A stretch of 64,000 nt of DNA, from assembly GCA_964016885.1 (NCBI GenBank), contig OZ024740.1:224006001-224070000 (forward strand), written 5' to 3'. The DNA comes from Eledone cirrhosa. Lineage: Eukaryota. This document shows positions 12,960 through 64,000 of the stretch, one piece after another (the stretch's first letter is position 1; each line of letters opens with the position of its first letter). The notes beneath the pieces were generated by a model that saw only the letters and a program-made list of their open reading frames with translations, had not been told where the DNA came from and did not search any database. Made by a program: the position numbers and the translations under genes.

Positions 12960-15880
12960 ATAGTATGGTAGAATATTAAATGATAAATGTTAATTGAACA
13001 AGTACTTTCATGCCTTCGCAATCTTCAGGTTCATATTCAGTGGTGACAGTCAAGTTTGCAATTTTCAACTGTAATGAGATGGGTAAAATCTGTGCCTTAT
13101 ATACAGTAAAGAGGGGCTACAGAATGCTAAGTTTTGAAAACTGTATTTCGACTAATCGGTGCGTGGTTTCACTAGGTTACTAAAGCTGATTGGTTTAGGC
13201 ATCACGGTTGATTGAGCATGTCTAACGACTTCTATTTGACCCTATCCAAAGCATCAATTGTTTTGCTATTTTTAGAAATGGTGAAAATAGTATTTTCTAT
13301 GGTTTTTATAAAAAAAATCCTCAGTAATCATCAACATCAACATCTCTTTTATTATTATTGTTGTTGTTGTTGTTAGTGGTGGTAGTCGACATGGTCGTAG
13401 GCGTAGTCATAGTGGAAGTAATACCCCTAAGCATTATTATTGTTAATTTAGCCTGGGTTGGAATTTATAAATAAAATTCTTTTTAATTTTTCTCTTGATT
13501 TCACTTGGGCTGTGTAGTTTGTAGAATGGAAATATAAATATTTTCTGACCGCATGTTGCTAGATGGTTACTCAGGGGTATCTGACGGACATTTGGGTCTC
13601 TGATATGCTGTCGGTGCACCCGTGTACGTTCCGATAGTGCATTTCCAGTTTGACCGACATATTGCCTTCACAATTCGGGCATTTAATGTAGTAAATTAGA
13701 TTTCTGCTTTTGCAGTTCATATTTGCATTTGGGAATATTTTTTCAGTTTTTGTTTTCATATATTAACCAGTATGTATGAACTGACATATGCCACATCGAC
13801 TATCATTGGATTTAGATACAGTGGATGATTGGTCTTTGTTCTTAAGGTCAAACTTTGCCTTTGTTAGTAATTGCTTCAAATTTGCGGCTGTCTTTTACTA
13901 AGAGTCAAAGCTCGGTCTGTGATTAAACCTTTTAATTCATTACTTTGAGCAATGATCGGTAGGTTTGCTTTGGCAGTGTTGAAGATATTCTGGTGACATG
14001 GGTTGTGTGTCATTATAAATGGTATGACCAGTTCTTGGTTTCTTCTTCCTTGGGTTGTCCTAAATTGTTGTATAGGTATTTTTATAGCCCACTGTATGCC
14101 ATTTTCTATAAGTAGAGATGGGTATTTTTGTTTGAGCAAAAATTCTCTCAGTTCTGTTAGGTGTTTGTTCCTGGTATTCGTATCTTCTACAATGACACAA
14201 ATTTTTCTGGCTAGGCAGTGTGGGATGTTGCGTTTTGTATGAGGTGGATGGCACGACTTAAAATTCAGATATTGATGGGTGTCTGTGTGTTTATAGTATA
14301 TATCCGTGGTAATGGTGGTGTCGTTTTTGATTACCATTATATCTACGAATGTTAATTTGGTACTACTCATCTCTTTTGTAAATTGATGAGATGGGGGGGG
14401 GGTGTAGGTTATTCAGGAGGATATTGAACTCATCCAGAGTATCTAGAGAATCTGTCCAGATGATGAAACAGTCGTCAAGGTATCTCTTCCAAGACTTTTC
14501 AATGTACTTTCTAAAATCAGTGCTATATTTTTCCTCTATTTCTTGGTAGAGTTGTTGTTCTAAGTATCCCATTACGAGTTCGCATAAACAGGAGCAAACT
14601 TCGTTCCCATCGCTGTGCCTCTAATTTGGATGTAATTCTTTCCATTGAAGAATAATGTGTTGTTTTCCAGAATAAGTCTGACTGCGTCTAATATAAATGG
14701 CACTGTGAATCTGGTGGGAATCACTTCTCTATGTTTTTCCACCCAGTATTTAACCGCCTTTATTCCTAAATCATGTGTAATGTTGGTTTAAAGGCTTACC
14801 ACATCAAAACTAAGGAGAAGTGAATTTGTTTCCGAGGTTTTGGGAAGATGAGACAGGAAGTCGATATCATCTCGGATGAAACTGAGTATGTGAATACATA
14901 GTGGTTTCAAAATAATGTCAACAAAATTGCTTAGACGGTGGGTAGGACATGTTGGACCAGCTATAATAGGTCTAAGTTTTAAGTCTTTTGGTTGTAGTAA
15001 TTTAATGTACTCACTTTTTTGTTCTTTTACTGCCAGTTGTATTTCTTTTGACTTATCGATTTTCGTTAAGTCATAAAAGTTGCTGGGTTTTGGCTCAAAA
15101 TTGGTGATGTAGTCTCTTTCAGTAAGGGAGTTGTAATATTTTGAAGCCAGGTTGTTGATCTTCTTCATGATGTTGTGGTCTATATTTGACGGTATTTCAT
15201 GGTAGAATGTTGTGTCTTTCAGTTGTCCCTCGACCAAATCTTTATAGTATTCAGCATCCATTATAACAATTGCGCCCCCTTTATCTGCTTGTTTAATTAT
15301 TATTGTTTTATCGTTTTGTATAAGTTTAAGTGCAGACATTTCCGATTTGTTAGTGTTTGGCCTAATATTGGTATTACGTCTAAGAGGAAATTTAGACAGG
15401 ATATCAATGTATTGGTCGAGATAGATATTTCTTCCTTTTGACGGAGTGAAATTTGATTTATTCGTTACTAGTGATTCTTCACTCTCATTACTTCTATCAC
15501 CGAAGAATTCTACAAGTCTTAACTTACGACAGAATACTTGGGTATTTTCCTTTCGTTCTTGGTGGTTGACTGTTGAAGTTGGTGTGAATTTCAGTTTTTT
15601 TGACAGAATTTGCATTTCATCATTGTCAAGATCTCTTTTGGATAAATTTATTATTTTAGGATCTACGCGTTCAATTGTCTTGGGTATGTTTCCTCCTGGA
15701 GTTTTTCTTTTTTCGGTTTTTGTTGTCCTGACGTTAAAAAATGGATTTTTTTCTGTTCAGGATTTATATTCCTGTTGGTGTTTGCTTGATGAACTTTTGG
15801 TCGTGATATTATATTTAGTTTCGTTATGCTTTTTTTCCTATTTTTGGTATTATGTATATTATTTTTCCATTTCTTGTTAG
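12960..15880 (-). mobile_element. Penelope-like retroelement (Neptune-like), frameshifted
   Basis: Consecutive minus-strand ORFs give the PLE motifs ADKGGAIV, LRPIIAG, SFDVVSL, RYLDDCFIIW and DIYYKHTDTHQYL..SCHP, a Cys-rich linker, and GIY-YIG (NLIYYIKCPNC...). An HHR lies in the 3' region. Confidence 0.9.
12995..13033 (-). ncRNA. Type-I minimal hammerhead ribozyme
   Basis: Minus strand: TGAAC-CTGAAGA-tTGC gaag GCAt-GAAA-GTAC-TT-GTTCA. Stem I is 5 bp and stem III is palindromic. Confidence 0.8.
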
Positions 15881-15989
15881 CATATATATATATATATATA
15901 CACACACAAAAAAAACATATATATATTCTCTCCATCTTAACATGCTAACCATACTCACACACATAGCACACATACACACACAACTCCCT

Positions 15990-16770
15990 CCCCCATTTCT
16001 ACTAATAGAATCATCTTCCTACACACACACACAAGCACACAGATAAACATACATATCTCTACTTTCTTTATTTCAATAGAATGTCTGAATTCTGACACCC
16101 CAGTGCACTAGACATATTCACTAAACCAGAACAATTCTCCCCATCCCATTTTTCTTGACCATTATCTTTTGTTTGGCATACAATTATCTAAAAGGCTACA
16201 AAATAAATTCCAAAATATGGGCGCGAAATTTAATGTACTTGTTCACGTGACAGTCATAATTTCATTTATAACCAATTAAATTACATTTATAAAAAAAAAG
16301 CCCTCATGAGCCACCCTTTAGTAAAAAAGAAAAACAAATTCAAACACAAACTGGCGCGAAAGCTGATGTGCTTATTCACGTGACTGCATCAACCAACAAA
16401 ACTTCACTCATATATGAAAATTAAAAAAACCCTTTGTTTGAAGAACTTTGTAACGTCAAATGGCGTGAATTTTATTATACTTATTCACCAACTAACCAAA
16501 TTACTTCTCTAAAAACATGGCATTTCGAGCCACTTTTTTCCATATAAAACAGAAGTAACATTCATAGATCAACCAGATGTGAGAAAAACCACAGACCTTC
16601 CATCTCAATTCTACTTTTCAAAAGCAGAAGAACTGCAAAACCGGTAAAGGAACCAAATATAAAAAAAAGACTCCATTTGAATTTTCGATTTCATCTTTTT
16701 TCCTTATACTTTCACTCGTGTAGGACACCTCGGTTATTTTTCATTTTGTAAAAAAAACCTCACTTTCTAA
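15990..16770 (+). mobile_element. Probable PLE 3' end / pseudo-LTR relic
   Basis: Bounded by simple repeats. Contains three internal subrepeats and a decayed HHR at 16614-16649 (ctt-TTCAAAA-GCAG aagaa CTGC-AAAA-CCGG-TA-aag). Confidence 0.55.
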
Positions 16771-16788
16771 TATATATATATATATATC

Positions 16789-17506
16789 AACTAGAAATTG
16801 ATTGACATATATATATCTAAAATAAACATGTGAAACAATCATAGGGAATAATTTGTAAAAGTGTGTAAGCACACATAGCTAGATAGGTAAAACATTAATG
16901 TTTAACTTGAACTTTAAATATAGATACCTAATCAATTGATTAATATTCCTTGTATATATTTCATTAAAGAAATATATTTTACCATATATATATCGATCGG
17001 TAAACCACTAACCAAATTCCGGATTTTCAGCAAGGGAGAAGATTTAACTATCTGTGTTTACACAGCAAATTCAAATTTGCGAATGACTAGCAGCACGTGT
17101 TGCATTTTTTTAAAATACACATATCGTATCAGCTTCATCCCAGTGGCGTGAATAGGGTTATCGACAACTAGAAATAGCAGCTGAGCCCTTTCAACTGAGT
17201 TAGCTCTATAATTAACGGGTTGTATATATATCCAAAATTAAATTAAGGGCGTCATGCCAGAGAGACATGCGCCATATCCACTGTAGAATATGCCCCAAAA
17301 TTCCAATGAATAGATCCGAGCATTTTATATGAACTAGAAATTAATTGACATATATATGTATCTAAAATAAACATATGAAACAATCACAGGGAATAATTTG
17401 TAAAAGTGTGTAAGCACATTTACAAATTATTCATTGGAATCTTGGAGTATATTCTACAGTGGATATGGTGCATATCTCTCTGACATAACACCCTTAATTT
17501 AATTTT

Positions 17507-18887: not shown

Positions 18888-19060
18888 AGTATATCTACTA
18901 ACATATGCGTACAGATGTACGCTAATGCTAGCAAATACACGGGTTATATCATAGTACCTAAGTGGTTCAATGCAGGAGGATGCAGAACAATAATATAAAA
19001 GACGTAAAATAAGAAAATTTTAAAAAATTAAAAAAAATTAACTTACTTACTAAAATGTTC

Positions 19061-19141
19061 ACTCCAACTAATTAGTTTCTGCAATGGGATAAAGACAGTT
19101 ATGTAATAAACTGTCGAGAATTCATTGCGTCATCAGGGAGT
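19061..19141 (-). ncRNA. Type-I hammerhead ribozyme with long stem II
   Basis: ACTCC-CTGATGA-[gcaatg..gacagtt..aactgtc..cattgc]-GAAA-CTAATTAG-TT-GGAGT. Confidence 0.85.
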
Positions 19142-19599
19142 CTATTCTCAGCTAAGTCTCCAGGCAATGCGCGGACACTGGGGACTCATATAAAAATAAT
19201 AATAATTCGGTATATGGAACAGCTAGCGGGGACTGAATTCCATGCACTGAAAAGCTCGCTGTCGCTGGTCAAATGGCAGATTCTAAAGAATCAATCACGT
19301 GACACTGAGGCTAGTCGGTAGGAGTGGGATGGTAAGATAACAGAAGCCTACTAGCACACCAATAAATTAGTAGTGGTTTTGGCAGGTTTGCTCAACAAAT
19401 AAGTAATTTGGAGATAAATATAGAAAATTTAGTATATCTACTAACATATGCGTACAGATGTACGCTAATGCTAGCAAATACACAGTTTATGTCATAGTAG
19501 CTAGGTGGTTCAATGCAGGAGGATGCAGAACAATAATATAAAAGACGTAAAATAAGAAAATGTTTAAATATTTTAAAAAATTAACTTACTAAAATGTTC

Positions 19600-19680
19600 A
19601 TTCCAACTAATTAGTTTTTGCAATGGGATAAAGACAGTTACGTAATAAACTGTCGAGAATTCATTGCGTCATCAGGGAGT
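19600..19680 (-). ncRNA. Second copy of that HHR, with GAAA changed to AAAA (G12 lost)
   Basis: Direct repeat of 19061-19141, with tttt in place of tttc on the + strand. Confidence 0.7.
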
Positions 19681-20600
19681 CTATTCTCAGCTAAGTCTCC
19701 AGGCAATGCGCGGACACTGGGGACTCATAAAAATAATAATAATAATTTCAGTGCATGGAAATCAGTCCCCGCTAGCTGTTCCATATACCGAATTATTATT
19801 ATTTTTATATGAGTCCCCAGTGTCCGCGCATTGCCTGGAGACTTAGCTGAGAATAGACTCCCTGATGACGCAATGAATTCTCGACAGTTTATTACGTAAA
19901 AACGGAAAAACAACCATACGAATACGCATGCGCAGAAACGATCACTTCTCCTGTGAGAGGTAATCCCACGATCGATGTAAGGGAGATAACTGTGGATGTG
20001 CTGACTAAATTAATCGAGATATTCAGAATATTAGATTGTTGATGTTAGTCAGTCTGGAGCTTTGTAATTATGTAATAGGTGTTTCCAGACGTGTGGACAA
20101 CATGAAAAAAGTTCATTCCGTGAATTTAGGCAATCATTATTACGTAAACACTTCAGGATATTGATCTTTTCTTCAATGCACAGTCCACAAGACAGATTTC
20201 CGCTTGCGTATGGCTTGGAGTTAGTAATAGCTTTCCATTGTATGGAGTAGTTTATGCTTGAGTCTTTGAGAGACCATACGTGGCTCGCAAGTTTCTTGGA
20301 CAATCGTTTGTCCAGGTATCTCAAGCTCGAATCATGGTTCAGAAAGCACTCATTAAACCAGTGATCCGCCATACCTACATACGGTTTAACCTCTTGCTGT
20401 TGATTTGGTCGGTTGGAAGTGACCACAGCTTTGTAAATTACAGTGGGTGTGTTGCATTGTTATTGAAGGGGACATGCTTCAGATTTTCGGCAAGAGCATC
20501 CTGGTGGTATGTTCCTCTTAGGGCTGTGTGTGATGAGGGCCTTCATATTCTTAGCAGAGGAGTATCCTAGTTTCACCCTGTGTCTGTTAAAGATGGAGTA

Positions 20601-44359: not shown

Positions 44360-44749
44360 ATTAGAATTGGTGCTCTGAAATAGCTATATATATATATGAA
44401 TGTATATATAGTGTATTTTTCAATACACTGTATGCTTAATTAAAAGCATTTCGAAGACCTTATGCTATTGTTTTAGAGTAGTGATAGTCTCACTTACTTT
44501 AATTTTCAGCCAACAGGGGAGATAAAGCCGACAGAGCCCTGTTTCGCATTTGTTGATGCTTATCAAGGCTTACTACTCCTCCTGTTTGCCGAAAATCATG
44601 GTTGTTTTATTCTTATAGAATTCTAGTAAATAATCAGGAACTGATTATACAGAGCAGTTGCCGGTCAAGCAGAAATTGAAAATTAGAATTGGTGCTCTGA
44701 AATAGCTATATATATATGAATGTATATATAGTGTATTTTGCAATACACT
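44360..44749 (-). mobile_element. Terminally redundant 322-bp non-coding unit with an HHR (retrozyme-like or PLE pseudo-LTR)
   Basis: Direct repeats of about 70 bp at 44360-44429 and 44682-44749, with TA flanks. Confidence 0.65.
44525..44571 (-). ncRNA. Type-I HHR with a U3-A8 core
   Basis: AAGCC-TTGATAA-GCAT caacaa ATGC-GAAA-CAGGGCTCTG-TC-GGCTT. All three stems pair and the triplet is GUC. Confidence 0.8.
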
Positions 44750-44775
44750 ATATATACATATATATATACACACAC

Positions 44776-44846
<71 letters not shown>

Positions 44847-44928
44847 TAGATAGATAGATAGATATATGTGTGTGTATGTATATATATATATATATATATA
44901 TAGATAGATAGATAGATATATGTGTGTG

Positions 44929-45015
<87 letters not shown>

Positions 45016-45578
45016 ATGTATGTATGTACTGAATATATGAAGAAACTAAACGAAGTTGTAAACAAACCAGAGGTATAACAATGCATCACACAGAGAAGTA
45101 GATTAGATTACAAATTATATTTGAAACTGAAATTTTATACATTGTGACAATAGTTTCCTTCTTTATCTATTTTCTATCAATCATTGTTAAAGATAAGATA
45201 ATTGTATATCTGTATATGACATAATCTACAACATTTCATGTGGAATTAGTCCTTGAATAATACAAAACTTTTTTATGTAGTTAGAAGGTTATTGTTTAAG
45301 GCTATCAGTTATTCACTCACTTGTCGTTTTGATGTATGATGACAAAAGTAATGTATTTTATTATTTATATTTACAGTAGGAAATATTAGTTACTTATAGC
45401 TGAACTCTTTTTCCAGTGAACGTTAAGTCTTTTTATGTTTATCTATATTTGTTTATAATCAATGCAGCGTGCTGGCATTAATGTATGATTAAAAATCTTA
45501 CTTCTCAATATCACCGCTTCAAGTTCCATCCATCCCACTGTTTCATAGCTACCATATTAGTAGAAGCCCACCATATAT

Positions 45579-45609
<31 letters not shown>

Positions 45610-45619
45610 ATCATTATTA

Positions 45620-46480
45620 ATTTTATAACTTTATGAATTTAACTCCTCTAATACGTAAACATCTCAATGGAAAGATAAGATATATTAATAAATTATCTCC
45701 TCAGAGAACTAATAAAGTGTATTAAATTTAAGCCAAAATGTCAATATTGGGTCGATATAAGCTAGATCAGCTAAATTAAGTCGGTTTTACTTATATAGTT
45801 CCCCGACCATGGTTTCTGGAACTCAAGAAACATCAATCATTCCAAGATGTTGGAATAACCAATATTGGAATAATTTCAGTTCCTTTATTGGGAAGAGAAT
45901 TCTTACTTACGAATAAAGGAACAAAGTGAATATATATCATACATACCAACATACATACAACTATATGTACATACTTCATAATTGTCCCATCAACAATGCA
46001 GAAATGTGCACAAGACCATATGAGGTTGACAAGGTCAGAGGTAAAGTATGTAGCTCCTTATAAATCGGAAGCACTATTCAGATACTGCATATGTGGATCA
46101 AGAGGCACATGATGATGAAATCTTTTTTTGCTAAAAAATAGTTTGACAGATGCTGCAGCCAAGACACTTAGGTCACCCTAAAGGTGACTAAAGGAATGTG
46201 GGCAATTAAAGAATCAAAGACGCCATTATCAATAACAAGAAAAAAATAAACAGAGATAAATAATAGATTGGAAATGCACGAAACAGATTGACTACTATAA
46301 CGACTTCAACCATGCATGTACAGAAGAAAGGGTCTTTGTTTCACATTTGAAAAGGGGATGCGCCCCGAAATATGATGTTGTATTATACTGAGTAAAACAT
46401 TCTTTTGTTTTGCTTTAATTATTATCCTGTGTCCTTTATATATATTTAACACATTCTAATGGTTTTAAAAACTTATCAGT
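45620..46480 (+). mobile_element. Decayed PLE 3' part (GIY-YIG relic plus HHR)
   Basis: About 46047-46110 translates CSSL*IGSTIQILHMWIKRH (compare C..YIGST.R.L..RI.EH). HHR at 46343. The left boundary is approximate. Confidence 0.55.
46343..46378 (+). ncRNA. HHR motif with a U3-A8 core; cleavage nucleotide is G, so probably inactive
   Basis: ACAT-TTGAAAA-GGGG atgcg CCCC-GAAA-TA-TG-ATGT. Confidence 0.7.
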
Positions 46481-46487
46481 CATTTGT

Positions 46488-46519
<32 letters not shown>

Positions 46520-46548
46520 AAAGAATAGAGGTGTAACACACAAGTTAT

Positions 46549-46942
46549 TATATATTGGTAAACGGAATAGAAAATGCTGACAAATTGTTCACAGTTGAAA
46601 AATGGTTTAATTAGGAATAAAAGAGTATTAGTGATTGTATGGGTTAGTATTCAGTTGTGGTTTTAAGTTTTTAAGTTTTTACCGGTTGCGCATTTCTAAA
46701 TGCTTTTCAAAAATAATTTTGAGATAGAGTGTCCGTGCTGTTTGCTCTGATCAGAGCAAACAGCACGGACACTCTATCTCAAAATTATTTTTGAAAAGCA
46801 TTTAGAAATGCGCAACCGGTAAAAACTTAAAAACTTAAAACCACAACTGAATACTAACCCATACAATCACTAATACTCTTTTATTCCTAATTAAACCATT
46901 TTTCAACTGTGAACAATTTGTCAGCATTTTCTATTCCGTTTA

Positions 46943-46952
<10 letters not shown>
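46549..46952. repeat. Apparently perfect 404-bp spacerless palindrome in (TA)n, with an HHR-like motif in each arm
   Basis: Centre ctga|tcag at 46750/46751. Motif ttt-TTGAAAA-GCATTT ag AAATGC-GCAA-CCGG-TA-aaa at 46788-46824 (+) and 46677-46713 (-). Confidence 0.9.
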
Positions 46953-47097: not shown

Positions 47098-47223
47098 GTA
47101 GGAGGTGAGTTTTATTGTAGTACAATAAAGCAATGCAGATATCGGATAAGAAGCACTCTACAGTTTGTAGGGCTGGAGTATACATAATATAAGATCAAAA
47201 GATGGTTAAAGGAGTTCCATGTA

Positions 47224-47290
47224 TTTTATTATGCGCATTTCAAAAACAAACATCATCATGCAATAATATTTGTGTTTTCATCAGATAAAA
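47224..47290 (-). ncRNA. Type-I HHR (left arm copy)
   Basis: Mirror image of 51982-52048. Confidence 0.85.
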
Positions 47291-48303
47291 CAGGAGAACA
47301 TGATATGAAGGCTAAAAAACACTTGTGGATAGTGCAGTTTTAAATCAACATATGAAAAGTGGTTTTAGATTGATGTGTGATATTGGGAAAAATATTTTAT
47401 TTAGAGAGGGGGGGTGGAAAGGATGAAAAAGGGGAGGAGATGAGAGGGAGAGATGGGTGATAGAGAGAAAGAGATAGTTTTTATAACTGAGAGGAGATAT
47501 ATTGTTTTACATAGAGAGGTTGAAAACCGTTGGAAGATAATGTATAAATTAAAAAAAAATTGAAAATTAACGAAAGGAGGATATGTGCGAGGAAAAAGTA
47601 TTTTATTTAGGGAGGGGGGGGGGGATGAAAAAAAGGGGGAGGAGATGAGAGTGAAGGTGGAGAGGGAGAGATGGGTGATAGAGAGAAAGAGATAGTTTTT
47701 ATAACTGAGAGAAAGATATATTGTTTTACATAGAGAGGTTGAGAAACCGTTGGAAGATAATGTATAAATTAAAGGAATTTGAAAATTAACGAAGGGAATT
47801 TATGTATGAAGATAGAGAGAAGAAATAATAATTGTGGATGAATATTCTAACGTCAAAAAAGGGTATGTTGTGGCAATTTCAAAATTAACGAAGAGAAAAA
47901 TTATTAAGGTTTGTGTGTAGAAGGATTTGAGAAAAATAATGTGAAGTTAAAGTTTGTATATTGGAGGAATTGATAATATATGCGAATAGAGTTAATATGT
48001 ATTAAGAATGAGTTCGTTGATGGGGAGAAACAAATATAATAAATTAAGGATGAAATTGAGATTAAAAAGATTTATGATAGAGAGAAAAAATAATGATTGC
48101 GGATGAATATTCTAACGTCAAAAAACAGATGTATATGTTATGAATGATTTTACAAGGTGAAGATAGAATGAGGGTAATGAGTAAACAAGTATTATAGAGT
48201 GTATAAAGCCCTTTAAAGTATGGTAGGAAGATGGGTCTATTTTAAAGAGGTGTATGTATATGTGCCTTTGAGAAAAGATTCTAAATTGATAAAGAATTGA
48301 ATA

Positions 48304-49291
48304 TTAACTGTATACTTTGTGAAAAGTTCTATGGAATTTATGCAGGCAGATAGAAAACAAATCTGTACGTCTATTTATTATAGAATCTAGGTTAGAGATA
48401 ATGATAAATTTTTCATTTAGGCAGAGATTACAGATTTTAGATAGAGAGCTGTTCAAGTATGGGGATGCAGAAGAAACCTTCTTCCAAAAGATGGTATATT
48501 TAATGTTTTTGTCTTTTAAGGACCATATGAGTTCTGAGAGAGCAGTGTTGGTTCTTTTAAGTTTGTATTTGAAAGATGAATGATGATTATAGAGACGAGC
48601 TTTAAAAGAGGTGGAAGTGGAGCCAAAATAGGTGAAGGAATTGGTGCTAGTTATAATTTTACATTCATAAATTAAGTTTTTATCGAGACAATGGTTGTTG
48701 AGAGGACATTTATTTTTAATGCGGCAGTTGCAATTAGAGAGATTATTAATGAGTGACCTAGTGTTATCTATAGAAGGAATTGGATTGGAGAAGTTGTTTG
48801 CGATAGGAATAATAGGAATAATAGTTTCTTGATTTAGAGTTGGATTATGAACATTTAGCGAAGTTGTGTTTGACGTTGTATTTGGGTTTACAGAAGTTAG
48901 CCTAGGGTTTACAATGACGTCGGGAGTACTATTACTGTTATTATGAAATTCAATGTTGGAAGGAAGAGATTTAGTATTTAGTATTTTATTGTTGTGTTTA
49001 GAGATGATGTTGGAAATATTGGAGGATGTGGAACAAGAAAATTTGATGGTGTGTTTGTTAAATATTTTACTATAGATATGTGAGGGAGGGAAGCATTTAT
49101 TTAAGGCACTAAAAAATAATTTAGGAATATTGTTATTAATAGAGATGGAGAAAGGAGCATTATACCAGATTATGTTTTTGTATCTAGGTCTTTTATTAAA
49201 ATTATTGGAATGATCATGATTAATTATTCTACTGTAAGTTTTTCTAGAATTTGTTTCTTTACTATATTTGATTTTATCTGGATAGCCGGCT
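48304..49291 (-). CDS. Inverted copy of the PLE C-terminal half (GIY-YIG)
   Basis: Identical to the C-terminal about 330 aa of 49295-50968 except for about 5 residues. Confidence 0.85.
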
Positions 49292-49294
49292 GAG

Positions 49295-50968
49295 GTGATT
49301 GGCTGGTTCAACAAATTGGATAATAAAAACAAACTAAAATTTATTCAATTTGATATTGCCAGCTACTATTCCTCCATTTCGCCTTCACTTCTCAAAAATG
49401 CTCTATCTTTCGCACTTAAATATTCTGACATCACCACAGATGAACTTCACATCATCCTCACCGCACGTAAAACCATCCTAGAGTTCAACAACGAATATTG
49501 GACCAGAGCCGATACCTCTAACAACTTCGACATCACAATGGGAGCATCCGATTCATCCCAATTGACTGATTTAATTGGTATCTTCATTTTGAACTCTTTG
49601 AGTCGGAAAATTCCTCAACTTCGAGGTGGAATTTATCGTGACGATGGACTCTTTACTATCCTAAATTGCAATATAGTTAACCTTAATATTATTAAGAACA
49701 ATATACGTAATCTCTTTAACCAACATAACCTAAAGATTGAATTTGATAATAGTATCAAACTAGCTAATTTCTTGGATGTATCTCTTAATCTTGACACTGG
49801 CCTATATTACCCTTACCATAAAAACAATGAGAACCTAAATTATGTTAACTTTAAATCTAACCATCCTACCAATATCAAGAATGCTATAGTTAGTAATATT
49901 GGAAAAAGAATATCTAACATATCCTCTAATAAAAACATCTTTGATGCTAACGCCAATTACTATAATAACGCACTTTCTAAAGCCGGCTATCCAGATAAAA
50001 TCAAATATAGTAAAGAAACAAATTCTAGAAAAACTTACAGTAGAATAATTAATCATGATCATTCCAATAATTTTAATAAAAGACCTAGATACAAAAACAT
50101 AATCTGGTATAATGCTCCTTTCTCCATCTCTATTAATAACAATATTCCTAAATTATTTTTTAGTGCCTTAAATAAATGCTTCCCTCCCTCACATATCTAT
50201 AGTAAAATATTTAACAAACACACCATCAAATTTTCTTATTCCACATCCTCCAATATTTCCAACATCATCTCTAAACACAACAATAAAATACTAAATTATA
50301 AATCTCTTCCTTCCAACATTGAATTTCATAATAACAGTAATAGTATTCCCGACGTCATTGTAAACCCTAGGCTAACTTCTGTAAACCCAAATACAACGTC
50401 AAACACAACTTCGCTAAATGTTCATAATCCAACTCTAAATCAAGAAACTATTATTCCTATTATTCCTATCGCAAACAACTTCTCCAATCCAATTCCTTCT
50501 ATAGATAACACTAGGTCACTCATTAATAATCTCTCTAATTGCAACTGCCGCATTAAAAATAAATGTCCTCTCAACAACCATTGTCTCGATAAAAACTTAA
50601 TTTATGAATGTAAAATTATAACTAGCACCAATTCCTTCACCTATTTTGGCTCCACTTCCACCTCTTTTAAAGCCCGTCTCTATAATCATCATTCATCTTT
50701 CAAATACAAACTTAAAAGAACCAACACTGCTCTCTCAGAACTCATATGGTCCTTAAAAGACAAAAACATTAAATATACCATCTTTTGGAAGAAGGTTTCT
50801 TCTGCATCCTCATACTTGAACAGCTCTCTATCTAAAATCTGTAATCTCTGCCTAAATGAAAAATTTACCATTATCTCTAATCTAGATTCTATAATAAATA
50901 GACGTACAGATTTATTTTCTATCTGCCTGCATAAATTCCATAGAACTTTTCACAAAGTATACAGTTAA
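49295..50968 (+). CDS. PLE RT plus GIY-YIG endonuclease, 5'-truncated, uninterrupted 557 aa
   Basis: FDIASYY, DITMG, IYRDDGL, NFLDVSL, SNHP, CNC..K..CPL...C, LIYECK...YFGST...FKARLYNH, CNLCLNEK, SICLH. Confidence 0.9.
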   Translation: MIGWFNKLDNKNKLKFIQFDIASYYSSISPSLLKNALSFALKYSDITTDELHIILTARKTILEFNNEYWTRADTSNNFDITMGASDSSQLTDLIGIFILNSLSRKIPQLRGGIYRDDGLFTILNCNIVNLNIIKNNIRNLFNQHNLKIEFDNSIKLANFLDVSLNLDTGLYYPYHKNNENLNYVNFKSNHPTNIKNAIVSNIGKRISNISSNKNIFDANANYYNNALSKAGYPDKIKYSKETNSRKTYSRIINHDHSNNFNKRPRYKNIIWYNAPFSISINNNIPKLFFSALNKCFPPSHIYSKIFNKHTIKFSYSTSSNISNIISKHNNKILNYKSLPSNIEFHNNSNSIPDVIVNPRLTSVNPNTTSNTTSLNVHNPTLNQETIIPIIPIANNFSNPIPSIDNTRSLINNLSNCNCRIKNKCPLNNHCLDKNLIYECKIITSTNSFTYFGSTSTSFKARLYNHHSSFKYKLKRTNTALSELIWSLKDKNIKYTIFWKKVSSASSYLNSSLSKICNLCLNEKFTIISNLDSIINRRTDLFSICLHKFHRTFHKVYS

Positions 50969-51981
50969 TATTCAATTCTTTATCAATTTAGAATCTTTTC
51001 TCAAAGGCACATATACATACACCTCTTTAAAATATACCCATCTTCCTACCATACTTTAAAGGGCATTATACACTCTATAATACTTGTTTACTCATTACCC
51101 TCATTCTATCTTCACCTTGTAAAATCCTTCATAACATATACATCTGTTTTTTGACGTTAGAATATTCATCCGCAATCATTATTTTTTTCTCTCTATCATA
51201 AATCTTTTTAATCTCAATTTCATCCTTAATTTATTATTTTTTTCTCCCCATCAACGAACTCATTCTTAATACATATTAACTCTTTATTCGCATATATTAT
51301 CAATTCCTCCAATATACAAACTTTAACTTCACATTATTTTTCTCAAATCCTTCTACACACAAACCTTAATAATTTTTCTCTTCGTTAATTTTGAAATTGC
51401 CACAACATACCCTTTTTTGACGTTAGAATATTCATCCACAATTATTATTTCTTCTCTCTATCTTCATACATAAATTCCCTTCGTTAATTTTCAAATTCCT
51501 TTAATTTATACATTATCTTCCAACGGTTTCTCAACCTCTCTATGTAAAACAATATATCTTTCTCTCAGTTATAAAAACTATCTCTTTCTCTCTATCACCC
51601 ATCTCTCCCTCTCCACCTTCACTCTCATCTCCTCCCCCTTTTTTTCACCCCCCCCCCCTCCCTAAATAAAATACCTTTTCCTCGCACATATCCTCCTTTC
51701 GTTAATTTTCAATTTTTTTTTAATTTATACATTATCTTCCAACGGTTTTCAACCTCTCTATGTAAAACAATATATCTCCTCTCAGTTATAAAAACTATCT
51801 CTTTCTCTCTATCACCCATCTCTCCCTCTCATCTCCTCCCCTTTTTCATCCTTTCCACCCCCCCTCTCTAAATAAAATATTTTTCCCAATATCACACATC
51901 AATCTAAAACCACTTTTCATATGTTGATTTAAAACTGCACTATCCACAAGTGTTTTTTAGCCTTCATATCATGTTCTCCTG

Positions 51982-52048
51982 TTTTATCTGATGAAAACAC
52001 AAATATTATTGCATGATGATGTTTGTTTTTGAAATGCGCATAATAAAA
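51982..52048 (+). ncRNA. Type-I HHR with long stem II
   Basis: TTTTAT-CTGATGA-[aaacacaaatattatt gcat gatgatgtttgttttt]-GAAA-TGCGCA-TA-ATAAAA. Confidence 0.85.
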
Positions 52049-52283
52049 TACATGGAACTCCTTTAACCATCTTTTGATCTTATATTATATATATATATAT
52101 ATATTTATTAAAATTACTATATATATATATATAAAATTACTATATATATATATATATATTTATTATTATTACTATATATATATATATATTCATTAGTTAA
52201 GCAAAACAAGACCACACATTTCACAAGGGAGACATTATTTAAAGATTTTCAACATAGTTGTAGTCTAATGTAAAGAATGTAAG

Positions 52284-52337: not shown

Positions 52338-55300
52338 GCACGAGGTGACGGAGGTCATGAAATCGCTCCCGTAAGTTTTGAATTTTTAACATATTTAAAT
52401 CATTTGTGAAATAACAACTCTTAGTACAAATGCTACGTAAAGCACCCGGCTTGAGCCCCAAAAAATTCGGACCCAAAATATATTGTTATAAGGCTCAAAT
52501 ATTCAAATATTCAACTTTGTATTGTACACTGTATATCCAAAAAAGAAAATGGCTATAAATGGAAGAAGAACCCCCCCCCCCCCTCCTCCTCTGTCTACAC
52601 TATATAGAACAGCCAAACTCACCAACACCAGAAACTAGATACACCACCCACCCCATCACCTGTGTACACTAAACCACCACCGCTCACTACGGCCATCATT
52701 ACAACCATTATCCCATCACCGCCGCCACCACCCCTTCACTCCTCCACTGCTACCACCGCTACAGCACCATCACTACAGTAATACGGTCACATCACCGCCA
52801 CCACTGCCTCGGTATCGACATCACCACCACCACTGTCTCAGTATCGCTACCGCCGCCAGTCTCCCACTTCTTTAGCTGGCTGCTGCCACCACATTATAGA
52901 ATCCCTACTGCTAAAAAAGAGGAAGGCATCAAAATATATAGATAGACTCAAAAGAAAAAAGAAAAAACAAACAACAAAACCAAAGCAGCACAGCAACAAC
53001 AGCAAAAAACGAGAAAAACAAACAGAGAAAAACAAAAAGAAAAAAAAACAAAAAAACCCCAAAACGTAAAGAAAATAAGAATGAAGAGAGAAGCAGGCGG
53101 ACGGACAGAGAAGAGGGGGGAAAAACTAAAACTTAAAAAAACAAAAACTAAGTCAGACATTCGAACACTACATTACAATGAAACTTATGCTTATTCATTT
53201 TTGGGGCCCTTTCTGCCTGTGTGTTTGTTTGTTTATGTGTGTTCGTATACAGCGTGGTGATAATGCCACACAAGGGCCAAGTGGAATGGCGGATCCACAG
53301 ATGGATATGTAACCATACATTCGCCAATCCTCGATATGAGTGTTTAAATATCGAACATAAACAGTTCGAATAACGGTGAAATGGAGACTAGAACGTCATG
53401 TGACAGACTCTCACCCAACAGGTGCCCCCTGGCTCAGCAGCAGGAACCTGACTGTCAACCAAATACTGCTGATGTTGGAGGAAGGAGAAGAAGGAAAGGG
53501 GCCAGAACCAACTGGACGAAAGAATTGAATAGAACTGTTATGCAATGTTACCTGAAAAGTAACCCCAAGGAGAGGGGCTACAGGAGACGGATGCATAACA
53601 TCTGGAACGAGATTGGTTTATTTAAATTAGATGAATAAAAATTGGCCGGGCAGGCTCGGGTAATAAGAGCTAATGGATGGATAAGCGAGCTGGAACTGGA
53701 GGAACTGAGCAGAGAGAATGGCTTGGAGATGGCGGGTGTAGTATGCTAGACAAGCGAGCCAGTGGGAAATGAAGGTGAAGAGGTCCTGAGAACGGAGGAA
53801 CCACCCGAAGCAGACAATGATCTGAATACTGAGATAAATAATACCTGGAACAGAGATACGGCCACTGAGGAGATGAATGCTGACGGGCTAGGACAAGATT
53901 CGGTTGACATCCTAAATTTAGTGGTAGATGAATTGAACAATGATAGTGGGAGACCTATGAACCTAAGATTTGTAGACAGGAAAAAGTTAAAAGAAACAAC
54001 AGCTAAGGTAAACAAAGTCATCCCATACCTTGAGGCGAGGAGCCTTCACCAGTGCAACAGTATCCTCAAAGCAACAGCAAATACGGTGAGGAAACTACTT
54101 GGTATAAAAGCGAGAGGAAACAACAGACAAGAAAGATCAGAGCCGTGGTGGAAGAAGCGACTGAGTGGGCAAATCGGGGAAATGAGAAATGACATAGGAA
54201 AGCTTGAGTCACTACTAAATGGGACACTAAAAAACATAGGCACTAAAAATAGACTGGAAATAAAATACAAAACTAGGAGGAAAAAGCTAAATATTATCAT
54301 AGAGGAACTGAAGCAACGCATTGTAGCAAAGAGTGCAAAAATCAGGCGATACGAGAACAGAGTCAGTCAGTATAAACAGAACCGCATGTTCGACAACAAC
54401 CAGAAGATGCTGTTTGGACAGCTTGAGGGGAAAGAAAGAGGCAACGACTTGATCCCTGGGGCGGAGCAAACTAAAACATTCTGGAGAGGAATATGGGAGC
54501 AGGATGTTAGACACAATGCCCAGGCAGGGTGGATTGAGACAGTACAGAGGGAGATCGGTGAGCAGGCACAGCAACAAATTGATTTGAGTATCACAGTTGA
54601 AACTCTTAAGGGGCAGGCAAAAAAACTAACCAACTGGAAATCACCAGGCCCAGATGGTGTGCAGGGGTATTGGATTAAACATTTAACATCCCTCCACCCG
54701 AAGCTGACGGCCATGTTCAATGACTGCTTGGTGTCGGGTGAGGTGCCAGAGTGGTTGACAAAAGGTACCACAGTTCTGATAATGAAAGACCGAATCAAGG
54801 GTAATGATGTTACCAACTATAGACCTATCACATGTCTGTCCGTAATGTGGAAACTGTTGACGAGCATTGTGTCTGAGGAAATCTACCATCACCTCCACAC
54901 AAACAACTTGTTACCGGACGAACAGAAAGGATGCCGAAAGAAGTTACGTGGTACAAAGGACCAGTTACTTATTGATAAGATGGTAATGGGGAATTGCAGG
55001 AGGAGACACACTGATCTTGCCATGGGATGGATAGACTACAGAAAGGCATTTGACAAGGTGCCTCATTCCTGGATCACCAAAAGCCTGGAGATCTTCAGGG
55101 TGGCAGATAACATCAGACAGTTGCTAGGCAGGAGTATGGGGTCCTGGGAGACAGAGTTGACATCAACTGGAGTATCCTTGGGAAGCGTGAAGATCAAGAG
55201 AGGTATCTTCCAGGGAGATAGCCTGTCCCCTCTGTTGTTTGTCCTTGCCCTGATGCCCTTGACCATTATGCTGCGAAAAGTGAGAGCAGGATACAAGTTG

Positions 55301-56859
55301 GGAAGGGGAGAGCTTACCATCAATCACCTCCTCTTCATGGACGATCTTAAGCTCTTCGGGAAAAGTGAGAAGGAGTTGGATGTGCTGGTTGACACTGTCC
55401 GTATTTTCACCAGTGATATATGTATGCAGTTTGGTATTGGTAAATGTGGAGTCATTGTGATGAAGAGGGGTAGGTTGAGCAGAAGTAACGGGATCCAGAT
55501 ACCAACAGGTGAGATGATAAAGGAAATTGACTCTGAGGAAGGATACAAGTATTTGGGCGTTCTGGAGGCTGATGGCATAAAGAACAAAAAAATGAAGGAA
55601 TTGTTAAGAACTGAATACATTCGGAGAGTAAGGAGCGTATTGAAGTCACATCTGAACAGCAGAAATGCCATAAGCGCAGTAAATTCCCGAGCTGTGTCTA
55701 TTATTAGGTACAGTGCGGGAATTCTGAGATGGAATGTTGCTGAACAAAAAGAAATGGATAGGAAGACTAGGAAGCTATTGACTATCTACAACATGTTCCA
55801 CAAGAGGAGTGATGTCGATAGACTCTACCTAAGGAGATCTGAGGGTGGAAGAGGTCTTATCAGCATAGAGGACTGTGTTCAGATGGAGAAAAACAACCTA
55901 TACAAATACGTGACCTATAGTAAGGAGCCAATGCTCAGAACTGTACTGAAGGAGGGGACAGTAGGCCAGGGGATGTCCAAGGAGGAAATAACATCAAGGA
56001 GGAAGAGCAGCCTTAAGGGAAAATCCCTTCATAGTACCTTCTTTGAGAAAACGGAATTTAGAGATCCACAGACATGGAACTGGTTGAGAAGAGGAGACCT
56101 CAAAAAGGCTACAGAAGGAATGCTAATGGCTGCGCAGGAGCAGGCCCTCAAAACGAAGTGGTTGAAGCACCATATCTACAAGGAGGAGGCTAGCCCACTG
56201 TGCAGGATCTGTGGAGAGAGAGAGGAGACTGTGGCTCACATTGTGTCCGAGTGTAAACACCTAGCCCAGACCCACTATAAGGGCTGGAGACACGATGTGA
56301 TGGGCAGGGTGATCCACTGGCACCTGTGCAAAGTAAACAATTTACCACATTTTGAGAAATGGTATGAGCATAGGCCAGAGGCGGTGATGGAGAACAATCA
56401 GGTGAAGGTGCTGTGGGATTTTAGGATACAGACGGACAAAAAACTGGAACACAATAGACCTGACCTGGTGGTTGTGGACAAAGAAAAAAGAACGTGTCTG
56501 ATTGTGGATGTGGCCTGCCCGTTCGACACGAGAGTGCAAGAGAAGGAGAGGGAGAAAATTAACCGATACCAGGACCTAAAGTGGGAGGTGAAAAGGATTT
56601 GGAACTGCCATGAAGTCAAAGTGATCCCGATTGTCATAGGCGCACTGGGGACTATCTCCAAAAGTTTCCAGGGATGGTTAAAGAAAATCGGCCCCTTCAC
56701 GCTTTTTGGAACGCTTCAAAAGGCATGCTTGCTTGGAACAGCAAGAACCCTCCGATACGTCCTGAATATCTGAGGCTGCAGGTAGTGGCTTGATATTCAA
56801 TCCAACGGACTTTCCAGTTAACCAACATCAATGACTGAGATTCAAGGAATAACAACAAC

Positions 56860-62229: not shown

Positions 62230-64000
62230 ATTTCACCACCAACACCATCACCACTACCACGCCAAAAACTCTAGTCAAGTTACCTCAACTTCTATTTCTA
62301 CTTCAACTTCAACACCATCACTACAGTACTACGATCACATCACCACCACCACTGCCTCATTGTCGCTACCGCCGCTATTCTCTCCCACTACTTCCTGCTA
62401 AGTACTACTAGCACAGCACCACCACCACTTCCTCATTATCGCTACCGCCTATATTCTCTCCCACTACCTCCTGCTAAGGCAAGCATCGTAGTTTTCTCCA
62501 CTAACAGAGGAAGGCATCAAAAGATATAAATTAGAATGATTTGATAACCCGGTCAAAAAATCAAAAAACCAAAAATCTAAATCAAAACAGCACAGCAGCA
62601 ACTAAAAATGTAAAGAAAAGAAAAAAGAAAAGAAAAACAAACAGACAGACAGAGAATGAAAAAAAAAACTAAGTCAAACATTCAACAATTACATTACAAT
62701 GAAACTTATGTTTATTATTTTTTGTTTTGTTTTTACCTATTTATTTGTTTGTTTATTTATGTTTGTCTACAGCGTGCCACACTAAAATCACCGGTGGTTA
62801 TGTAACCATACAATCACCAATCCTCGAAAAGAGTGTTTAAATGTGGAACATAAACAATTAGAATAACGGTGAAGTGGAGACTGGAATGTCATGTGACAGA
62901 CTCTCACCCAGCAGGTGCTCCCTGGCTCAACAGCAGGGACCTGATAGTGGGAAACCTATGAACCTAAGATTTGTAGACAGGAAAAAGTTAAAAGAAACAA
63001 CAGCTAACGTAAACAACGTCATCCCATACCTTGAGGCGAGGAGCCTTCACCAGTGCAACAATATCCTCAAAGCAACAGCAAATACGGTGAGGAAATTACT
63101 TGGCATAAAAGCGAGAGGAAACAACAAACAAGCAAGATCAGAACCTTGGTGGAAGAAACGACTGAATGGTCAAATCAGGGAAATGAGAAATGACACTGGA
63201 AAGCTTGAGTCCCTACTAAATGGGACACTAAAAAACATAGACACTAAAAATAGACTGGAAATAAAGTACAAAACTAGGAGGAAAAAGCTAAATATTATCA
63301 TAGAGGAACTGATGCAACGCATTGTAGTAAAGTGTGCAAAAATTAGGCGATACGAGAGCAGAATCAGTCAGTATAGACAGAACCGCATGTTTGACAACAG
63401 CCAGAAGATGTTGTTTGGACAGCTTGAAGGGAAAGAAAGAGGCAACGACTTGATCCCTGAGGCGGAACAAACTAAGACATTCTGGAGAGGAATATGGGAG
63501 CAGGATGTTGAACATAATGATCAGGCAGTGTGGATTGAGACTGTACAAAAGGAGATTAATGAACAGGCACACCAACAAACTGATTTGAGTATCACAGTTG
63601 AAACTCTTAAGGGGCAGGCCAGAAAAATAACCAACTGGAAATCACCAGGCCCAGATGGTGTGCAGGGGTATTGGATTAAAAATATAACATCCCTCCACCC
63701 GAAACTGACAACCATGTTCAATGACTGCTTGATGTCAGGTGAGGTACCAGAGTGGTTGACAAAAGGTACCACAGTTCTGGCAATGAAAGACCGAATCAAG
63801 GGTAATGATGTTACCAACTATAGACCTATCACATGTCTGTCCGTAATTTGGAAACTATTGACAAGCATTGTGTCAGAGGAAATCTACCATCACCTCCACA
63901 CAAACAACTTGTTACCGGACGAACAGAAAGGATGCCGAAAGAAGTCCCGTGGTACAAAGGACCAGTTACTAATGATAAGATGGTAATGAGGAATTGCAAG
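62230..64000 (+). mobile_element. Second R4/Dong-like copy, running off the window end
   Basis: The 5' region aligns to about 52640-53450. ORF 62874-63986 is highly similar to 53381-54980, with an internal deletion and a frameshift near 63970. Confidence 0.9.

What the first reader, a model, noticed from the sequence alone, without database searches (positions are those of the whole stretch)
44525..46824. Recurrent U3-A8 compensatory HHR core (TTGAnAA) in four unrelated families
Seen: TTGATAA (44560-44566, -), TTGAAAA (46347 and 46791) and a decayed TTCAAAA (16617). Each sits exactly where CTGAnGA belongs, between paired stems I and II. Established: C3 and G8 form a Watson-Crick pair in the active full-length HHR, so U3-A8 is the compensatory double change. 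Inference: these are covarying functional variants rather than decay, and searches requiring CUGANGA would miss them. The 44525 motif has three intact stems and a GUC triplet.
Basis: partly seen in the sequence, partly recalled or inferred. Interest (0 to 1): 0.75.

Follow-up and report, generated by a model that had tools for sequence, protein, structure and literature searches.

The report
Known U-A hammerheads in Penelope repeats
The four motifs are hammerhead-shaped RNA sequences, predicted to cut themselves, carried by jumping-gene families of an animal genome; their swapped U-A core pair is fixed in each family but already published, and the one surprise is a family of over 10,000 copies that also has a normally invariant core base changed and is likely impaired.

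Summary
All four motifs are real type I hammerhead folds, and U3-A8 is the family state, not decay: 33 of 33, 98 of 100, 99 of 100 and 35 of 37 copies. They form three lineages, not four. 44525 belongs to a 320-bp retrozyme-type repeat whose relatives carry C3-G8; a tree of 96 units needs one C-G/U-A switch, with compensatory helix changes. 16617 and 46791 are end repeats of sister Neptune-like Penelope elements; 46347 ends an old, unrelated Penelope element. The window copies at 16617 and 46347 carry private damage. Natural U3-A8 is published, including in Penelope elements (PMC3088659, PMC4209133), and this scan noted it repeatedly on other DNA. The residual novelty is the 46791 family: 10,270 matches, 97 of the first 100 with A13C, while its reverse transcriptase stayed under purifying selection (dN/dS 0.09-0.40). 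I found no A13C report. Cleavage is untested for every motif. Verdict: new members of a known kind, modest interest.

The parts
44360..44753 (-). F1: 1.2 units of a non-coding ~320-bp retrozyme-type repeat, between (TA)n tracts
   Evidence: Terminal direct repeat 44360-44433 / 44682-44753; tandem and inverted copies elsewhere, e.g. three units at 320-bp period in L005
44525..44571 (-). F1 type I hammerhead, U3-A8 core at 44566-44560, closed helix III, GUC triplet, predicted cut between 44530 and 44529
45943..46458 (+). F2: decayed 3' end of an old Penelope-like element (GIY-YIG remnant about 46060-46320 plus end repeat)
   Evidence: 67-69% identity over about 510-570 nt to L044, L047, L058, which translate to a GIY-YIG-like stretch
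46343..46378 (+). F2 minimal hammerhead, U3-A8 at 46347-46353, 4-nt palindromic helix III; this copy has a private G17 (46374)
46549..46952 (.). F4: perfect head-to-head palindrome of two 5'-truncated end repeats (202-nt arms, no spacer), between (TA)n tracts
   Evidence: I7; same end repeat follows an RT + GIY-YIG frame in L203, L204, L212, L214, L215
46788..46824 (+). F4 minimal hammerhead, U3-A8 at 46791-46797, family-wide A13C at 46813, 6-nt palindromic helix III, GUA triplet
46678..46713 (-).
15897..16790 (+). F3: end repeat of a Neptune-like Penelope element, sister of F4; a separate insertion from the adjacent PLE_A frame
   Evidence: PLE_A RT only 46-47% identical to F3/F4 RT
16614..16649 (+). 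F3 minimal hammerhead, U3-A8; this copy decayed (G5C at 16619, G12A at 16637)
12996..13032 (-). Comparison: C3-G8 minimal hammerhead of PLE_A, a more distant element of the same protein group as F3/F4
   Evidence: same motif in L091, L177

Best explanation
The four motifs are type I hammerhead sequences in Penelope-like element end repeats (16617, 46347, 46791) and in a 320-bp retrozyme-type repeat (44525), and each family carries U3-A8 in place of C3-G8, a compensatory swap that likely keeps the core pair and so likely keeps some self-cleavage in the intact family members. Shown: the folds, the family-wide U3-A8 state, the link of F3 and F4 to RT + GIY-YIG frames, and a joint change of positions 3 and 8 on one branch of the retrozyme tree. 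Inferred: the swap arose separately in three lineages and was then inherited; F1 would cut multimeric transcripts into ~320-nt units as a monomer (closed helix III), whereas F2 and F3 would cut as dimers or with protein help (palindromic helix III). F4 most likely lost most of its catalysis through A13C and kept spreading because cleavage is not needed for insertion. The window copies at 16617 and 46347 are likely dead or weak relics.
For: Family states: F1 33 of 33 exact-flank matches; F3 98 of the first 100 of 4,420; F4 99 of the first 100 of 10,270; F2 U3 37 of 37, A8 35 of 37. Only C-G and U-A occur with A13 in a 1-Mb unbiased sample, about 9 and 3 families. Retrozyme lineage: C-G units lie on one side of a 100/99 branch, tested columns removed; on 16 hand-picked rows the 3-8 pair is U-A 9, C-G 7, never broken, and all four helix II pairs show two-sided changes (30 cells against 9.8 in shuffles). 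F3, F4 and a third sister F5 (L006, L017, read by eye) share U3-A8 and the same palindrome, while PLE_A has C3-G8; F3 and F5 keep A13, so C13 is derived. F4 RT/N-terminal pairs give dN/dS 0.09-0.40 in 6 of 6 comparisons. Literature: U3-A8 natural and active in vitro by citation (PMC3088659); in S. mansoni Penelope elements (PMC4209133); hammerhead-dead mutants of an Anolis Penelope element still insert in vitro (PMC11167929 passages).
Against: No cleavage data for any motif. Each switch is one event inherited by many copies, so the counts are not independent; three events is a small number, and C-to-T and G-to-A are the changes an AT-rich genome favours. In PMC9901934 (passages) only the G-C swap rescued one hammerhead. 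The F1 active fold is a minority in the computed ensemble. The F4 motif shows 0 majority differences in 32 columns between its two subfamilies against 21 in 215 flanking columns, which fits continued constraint better than plain loss, though most of those loci were picked with a pattern that fixes the motif. The listed first 100 matches come from the start of contig C1, not a random draw.
Confidence: 0.8

Rival explanations
1. The F4 core (U3-A8 with C13) is a tolerated natural variant that still cleaves, probably as a dimer through its palindrome or with help from the element's protein, and is under selection.
For: C13 is shared by both F4 subfamilies (dS about 0.09-0.13 apart) while the rest of the core, helix II and the palindrome are unchanged (mean distance 0.006 against 0.08-0.17 in flanks; five copies found by other routes agree). 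A protein-assisted Penelope hammerhead is known (PMC11167929). One copy (L134) begins about at the predicted cut.
Against: A13 is listed as invariant core (PMC3088659); helix I of F4 is only 3 A-U pairs; motif conservation is inflated by how loci were chosen; only 1 of 6 short copies starts near the cut.
Confidence: 0.2
2. U3-A8 is a weak or dead state that was fixed by drift and AT-biased mutation and amplified passively, because these elements do not need to cleave.
For: Both changes are transitions toward A/T; cleavage is dispensable in vitro and Naiads spread without canonical hammerheads (PMC8557442 passages); U-A was not among the rescued pairs in PMC9901934; F4 tolerated A13C.
Against: No family with a mismatched 3-8 pair in the 1-Mb sample; after the switch the F1 lineage split into several subfamilies that kept the whole core while changing helix pairs in compensated fashion.
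Confidence: 0.12
3. The heptamers are chance matches or private double transitions in these copies.
For: TTGAnAA is common in AT-rich DNA; a loose scan gives other hits such as 24164; three of the motifs do not fold better than shuffles on their own (z -0.5 to -0.8).
Against: Family counts, shuffles and position in Penelope end repeats.
Confidence: 0.01

Closest known systems
Minimal hammerheads of metazoan Penelope-like elements, including the U3-A8 variant of Schistosoma mansoni Cercyon (Cervera and de la Pena 2014, PMC4209133; parts 1-2 of 4 read)
   Same: Type I fold in the end repeat, short helix I, palindromic helix III, solo truncated copies and opposite-strand pairs, and the same U3-A8 covariation.
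   Different: Other host and element families; F4 adds a fixed A13C that the text I read does not mention (its supplements were not opened).
Metazoan non-LTR retrozymes (Cervera and de la Pena 2020, PMC7229834, passages; Li et al. bioRxiv 10.64898/2026.07.22.740005, part 1 of 5)
   Same: Non-coding, AT-rich ~320-bp unit with one type I hammerhead, as solo copies, dimers and arrays.
   Different: U3-A8 core and a closed 4-bp helix III; circular RNA not shown; no autonomous partner identified.
Natural U3-A8 hammerhead cores (Perreault et al. 2011, PMC3088659; passages and part 3 of 8)
   Same: Same covariation, reported in several natural examples and cited as active in vitro.
   Different: Here the switch is placed on a branch within one repeat lineage; A13C is not among the variants named in the parts read (Figure 5 and Figures S6-S7 not seen).
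Neptune-clade Penelope-like elements (as described in Craig et al. 2021, PMC8557442, passages)
   Same: RT followed by a cysteine linker and C-terminal GIY-YIG, insertion in (TA)n, inverted 5'-truncated copies.
   Different: Clade not tested against reference proteins; Nematis elements also have a linker.

Membership tests
Type I hammerhead ribozyme | Three helices around the core, ends joined in helix I | tested here: met
   helix III is a closed hairpin in F1 and a self-complementary palindrome in F2-F4
Type I hammerhead ribozyme | Watson-Crick pair at positions 3 and 8 | tested here: met
   U-A in all four families; covaries with C-G in the F1 lineage
Type I hammerhead ribozyme | Remaining invariant core (U4 G5 A6 A9 G12 A13 A14 A15.1 U16.1 H17) in F1, F2, F3 families | tested here: met
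   family majorities; window copies at 16617 and 46347 fail individually
Type I hammerhead ribozyme | Remaining invariant core in the F4 family (46791) | tested here: not met
   C13 in 97, A13 in 2, G13 in 1 of the first 100 matches; filed as hammerhead-derived, not as a ribozyme
Type I hammerhead ribozyme | Site-specific self-cleavage after position 17 | not testable with these tools
   needs an assay; copy ends in held loci were inconclusive
Penelope-like element end-repeat hammerhead | Lies in the repeat downstream of an RT + GIY-YIG frame, same strand | tested here: met
   F3 and F4: 0.8-1.3 kb behind the frame in many loci; F2: only a GIY-YIG remnant seen, RT not reached
Penelope-like element end-repeat hammerhead | Inverted or tandem truncated copies, microsatellite targets | tested here: met
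Neptune clade | CX2-5CxxC linker between RT and C-terminal endonuclease | tested here: met
   present in F3, F4, F5 and PLE_A translations
Neptune clade | Groups with reference Neptune RTs in a tree | not tested
   no reference proteins fetched; Pfam gave 0 families for 4 of 4 window frames
Non-LTR retrozyme | Non-coding 170-400-bp AT-rich unit with one type I hammerhead, in tandem repeats | tested here: met
   322-bp unit; tandem units in L005, L002, L014; relative with 11 scored units in L149
Non-LTR retrozyme | Accumulates as circular and linear unit-length RNA | not testable with these tools
   needs RNA data from this animal

The most novel reading that the evidence does not exclude
The 46791 family is a protein-coding Penelope element that has spread to more than 10,000 copies with a doubly variant hammerhead core (U3-A8 plus C13) that still cleaves, or that is kept as a non-catalytic fold read by the element's protein; with its A13-bearing sisters F3 and F5 it is a natural experiment on whether Penelope elements need their ribozyme.
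Probability: 0.25. Interest if true: 0.6.

Novelty: new member of a known kind. Interest (0 to 1): 0.3.

Why it matters
The headline claim is a correct rediscovery: U3-A8 hammerheads are in print, also for Penelope elements. What this locus adds is small but usable. First, one retrozyme lineage holds both C3-G8 and U3-A8 subfamilies in the same sequence background, a ready-made natural pair for measuring the cost of the swap. Second, the role of hammerheads in Penelope transposition is open; a highly successful coding family with a fixed A13C, beside intact sisters, bears on it either way: a dead motif shows cleavage is dispensable in vivo, an active one widens the core consensus that search descriptors use.

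Tried and rejected
Rfam scan of the window: no hammerhead family at E up to 1, canonical motifs included. DNA search for 46752-46900 found nothing because very common words are skipped; a first F1 pattern was too tight and found only the window copy. Sequencing runs: no RNA holder listed; the three runs laid are contigs of one sample and show only that F4 and F1 are high-copy. 'Fossil cut marks' (lead from e1-8643110): in held loci most F4 5' ends lie 58-125 nt or more upstream of the predicted cut, and 1 of 6 short F4 hits starts near it; the F3 short hits are alignment breaks at an A run; these loci were chosen for intact motifs, so the test is inconclusive, and no genome-wide count of copy ends was obtained. 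Linking 16617 to the adjacent PLE_A frame was rejected: a (TA)n tract separates them, PLE_A has its own C3-G8 motif and different protein. RT frames near F1 copies belong to neighbouring elements; no partner found. A U-G intermediate was not seen among 96 F1-lineage units. The 24164 hit has weak helices and was not followed. Papers not held: Przybilski and Hammann 2007, Lunse et al. 2017, Martick and Scott 2006, Nelson and Uhlenbeck 2008; the first two may bear on U3-A8 activity and on A13 variants. Search for 'hammerhead ribozyme' + 'A13C' gave 0 papers; two searches gave listings only, of which I read passages in PMC6257768, PMC3907566, PMC2837043 without finding an A13C case. No supplements were opened.

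Full report
Setting. The window lies in a 3.0-Gb, AT-rich animal genome (G000:C1:224006001-224070000) full of (TA)n tracts and retroelements.

Observation. A descriptor scan of the window finds all four motifs at the stated places. 44525-44571(-) is a complete type I hammerhead with U3-A8, intact GAAA and GUC. 46347 has U3-A8 but G at position 17. 46791 has U3-A8 but C at position 13, and is mirrored at 46710 in a perfect 202-nt palindrome. 16617 has G5C and G12A. The window also holds canonical C3-G8 motifs at 47284(-), 51988(+) and 13028(-). In 1 Mb of evenly spaced genome stretches, with positions 3, 8 and 13 free, hits were 34 C3-G8 (about 9 families; 16 hits from two arrays), 8 U3-A8 (3 families), 2 others, and none of the other 14 pairings with A13; shuffles gave at most 0.4 per class (one search gave the same picture on 600 kb).

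F1 (44525). It sits in a 322-bp non-coding unit found as solo, tandem and inverted copies. All 33 exact-flank matches with 3, 7 and 8 free read U3-A8. Homologous units with C3-G8 exist (77% identical in L086). From three seeded searches (best 25-30 loci each, so not a random sample) I aligned 96 distinct units of 129: 62 U-A, 31 C-G, 3 single-copy mismatches. With the two tested columns removed, the C-G units are one side of a 100/99 branch; the most distant relative (L149) is C-G, so the change likely ran C-G to U-A, once (midpoint root, bootstrap not fully settled). After it the lineage split into several subfamilies that kept the core. On 16 hand-picked rows the 3-8 pair is never broken and all four helix II pairs change on both sides (related rows inflate such scores). 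This is direct covariation in one background. The active fold competes with a more stable misfold in this copy. F1 meets the sequence criteria of a non-LTR retrozyme; circular RNA is not shown.

F3 (16617) and F4 (46791). These are end repeats of coding Penelope-like elements: RT, cysteine linker, C-terminal GIY-YIG, then the motif 0.8-1.3 kb downstream on the same strand. They are sisters: 73% over 125 nt around the motif, proteins 56-57% identical. F3 has 4,420 exact-flank matches, 98 of the first 100 U3-A8 and none C3-G8, so the window copy is a damaged member of an intact family. F4 has 10,270 matches; of the first 100, 99 are U3-A8 and 97 have C13. A third sister, F5 (L006, L017; 66-70% to F4), has U3-A8 with A13 (read by eye), and the more distant PLE_A has C3-G8. 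So U3-A8 arose once in this group and C13 later in F4. F4 copies with C13 differ by dS 0.02-0.13 with dN/dS 0.09-0.40 in 6 of 6 pairs, so the family went on transposing with its own protein. Between its two subfamilies the motif shows 0 majority differences in 32 columns against 21 in 215 flanking columns, a weak sign of continued constraint because most loci were picked by a motif pattern.

F2 (46347). An old family (about 80% identity) behind a decayed GIY-YIG only about 25% identical to that of F3. U3 in 37 of 37 and A8 in 35 of 37 rows; position 17 is C or T in 35 (two rows are partial or spurious). G17 is private to the window copy; G17 lowers cleavage 8- to 100-fold in natural hammerheads (PMC3884650 passages).

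Mechanism. Established: C3 and G8 pair in the active core, and the 2'-OH at position 8 acts in catalysis (PMC6257768 passages), so a U-A pair can keep the geometry. Inferred: F1 would cut multimers into unit-length RNA; F2 and F3 would cut as dimers through their palindromes or with protein help, as proposed for Penelope motifs (PMC4209133; PMC11167929). F4 is likely impaired; cleavage-dead mutants still insert in vitro and Naiads lack canonical motifs. Against activity of U-A: one mutagenesis study saw rescue only by G3-C8.

Prior art. Perreault et al. 2011 report natural U3-A8 and cite in vitro activity. Cervera and de la Pena 2014 report it in S. mansoni Penelope elements, about 1,300 hits missed by their first descriptor. 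I found no paper naming A13C, but two key papers were not held and no supplements were opened.

Verdict. Observation partly confirmed, interpretation partly supported, new members of a known kind, interest 0.3. The part worth a bench test is the F4 A13C family beside F3 and F5, and the paired C-G / U-A retrozyme subfamilies.

Noticed in passing
window 47179-52093: Penelope-like element with long inverted arms (1207 and 460 nt, 97-99% complementary), a 560-aa RT-end + GIY-YIG frame at 49286-50968 and canonical C3-G8 minimal hammerheads at 47284(-) and 51988(+) with a long helix II.
   Followed up: partly
window 12996-15756 (-): Decayed Neptune-like element PLE_A; its C3-G8 hammerhead begins helix II with a U-U mismatch, also in L091 and L177, and F5 shows the same U-U start; U10.1-U11.1 is reported as tolerated in PMC3088659.
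   Followed up: partly
window 18900-20459 (-): GIY-YIG remnant followed by tandem and inverted end repeats with a canonical 5' core heptamer (about 19675 and 19135) that my type I descriptor does not complete; possibly a rearranged hammerhead of the kind other notes describe in this genome.
   Followed up: no
L149 and L152: Arrays of a ~310-bp C3-G8 retrozyme (11 and 5 scored motifs) distantly homologous to F1 but with a palindromic, dimer-type helix III, so the lineage also switched between dimer-type and closed helix III.
   Followed up: partly
F4 copies, e.g. window 46751, L047, L093, L099, L100, L196: Many short F4 copies begin in a narrow zone about 60-80 nt upstream of the predicted cut and end about 130 or 170 nt downstream, suggesting preferred start and end points.
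   Followed up: partly
window 53750-56773 (+): A 1007-aa open RT frame of a non-LTR retrotransposon, with a second partial copy at 62862-63986.
   Followed up: no
L216:6234-7352 (-): An intronless 373-aa frame that looks like a rhodopsin-type G-protein-coupled receptor (by eye).
   Followed up: no
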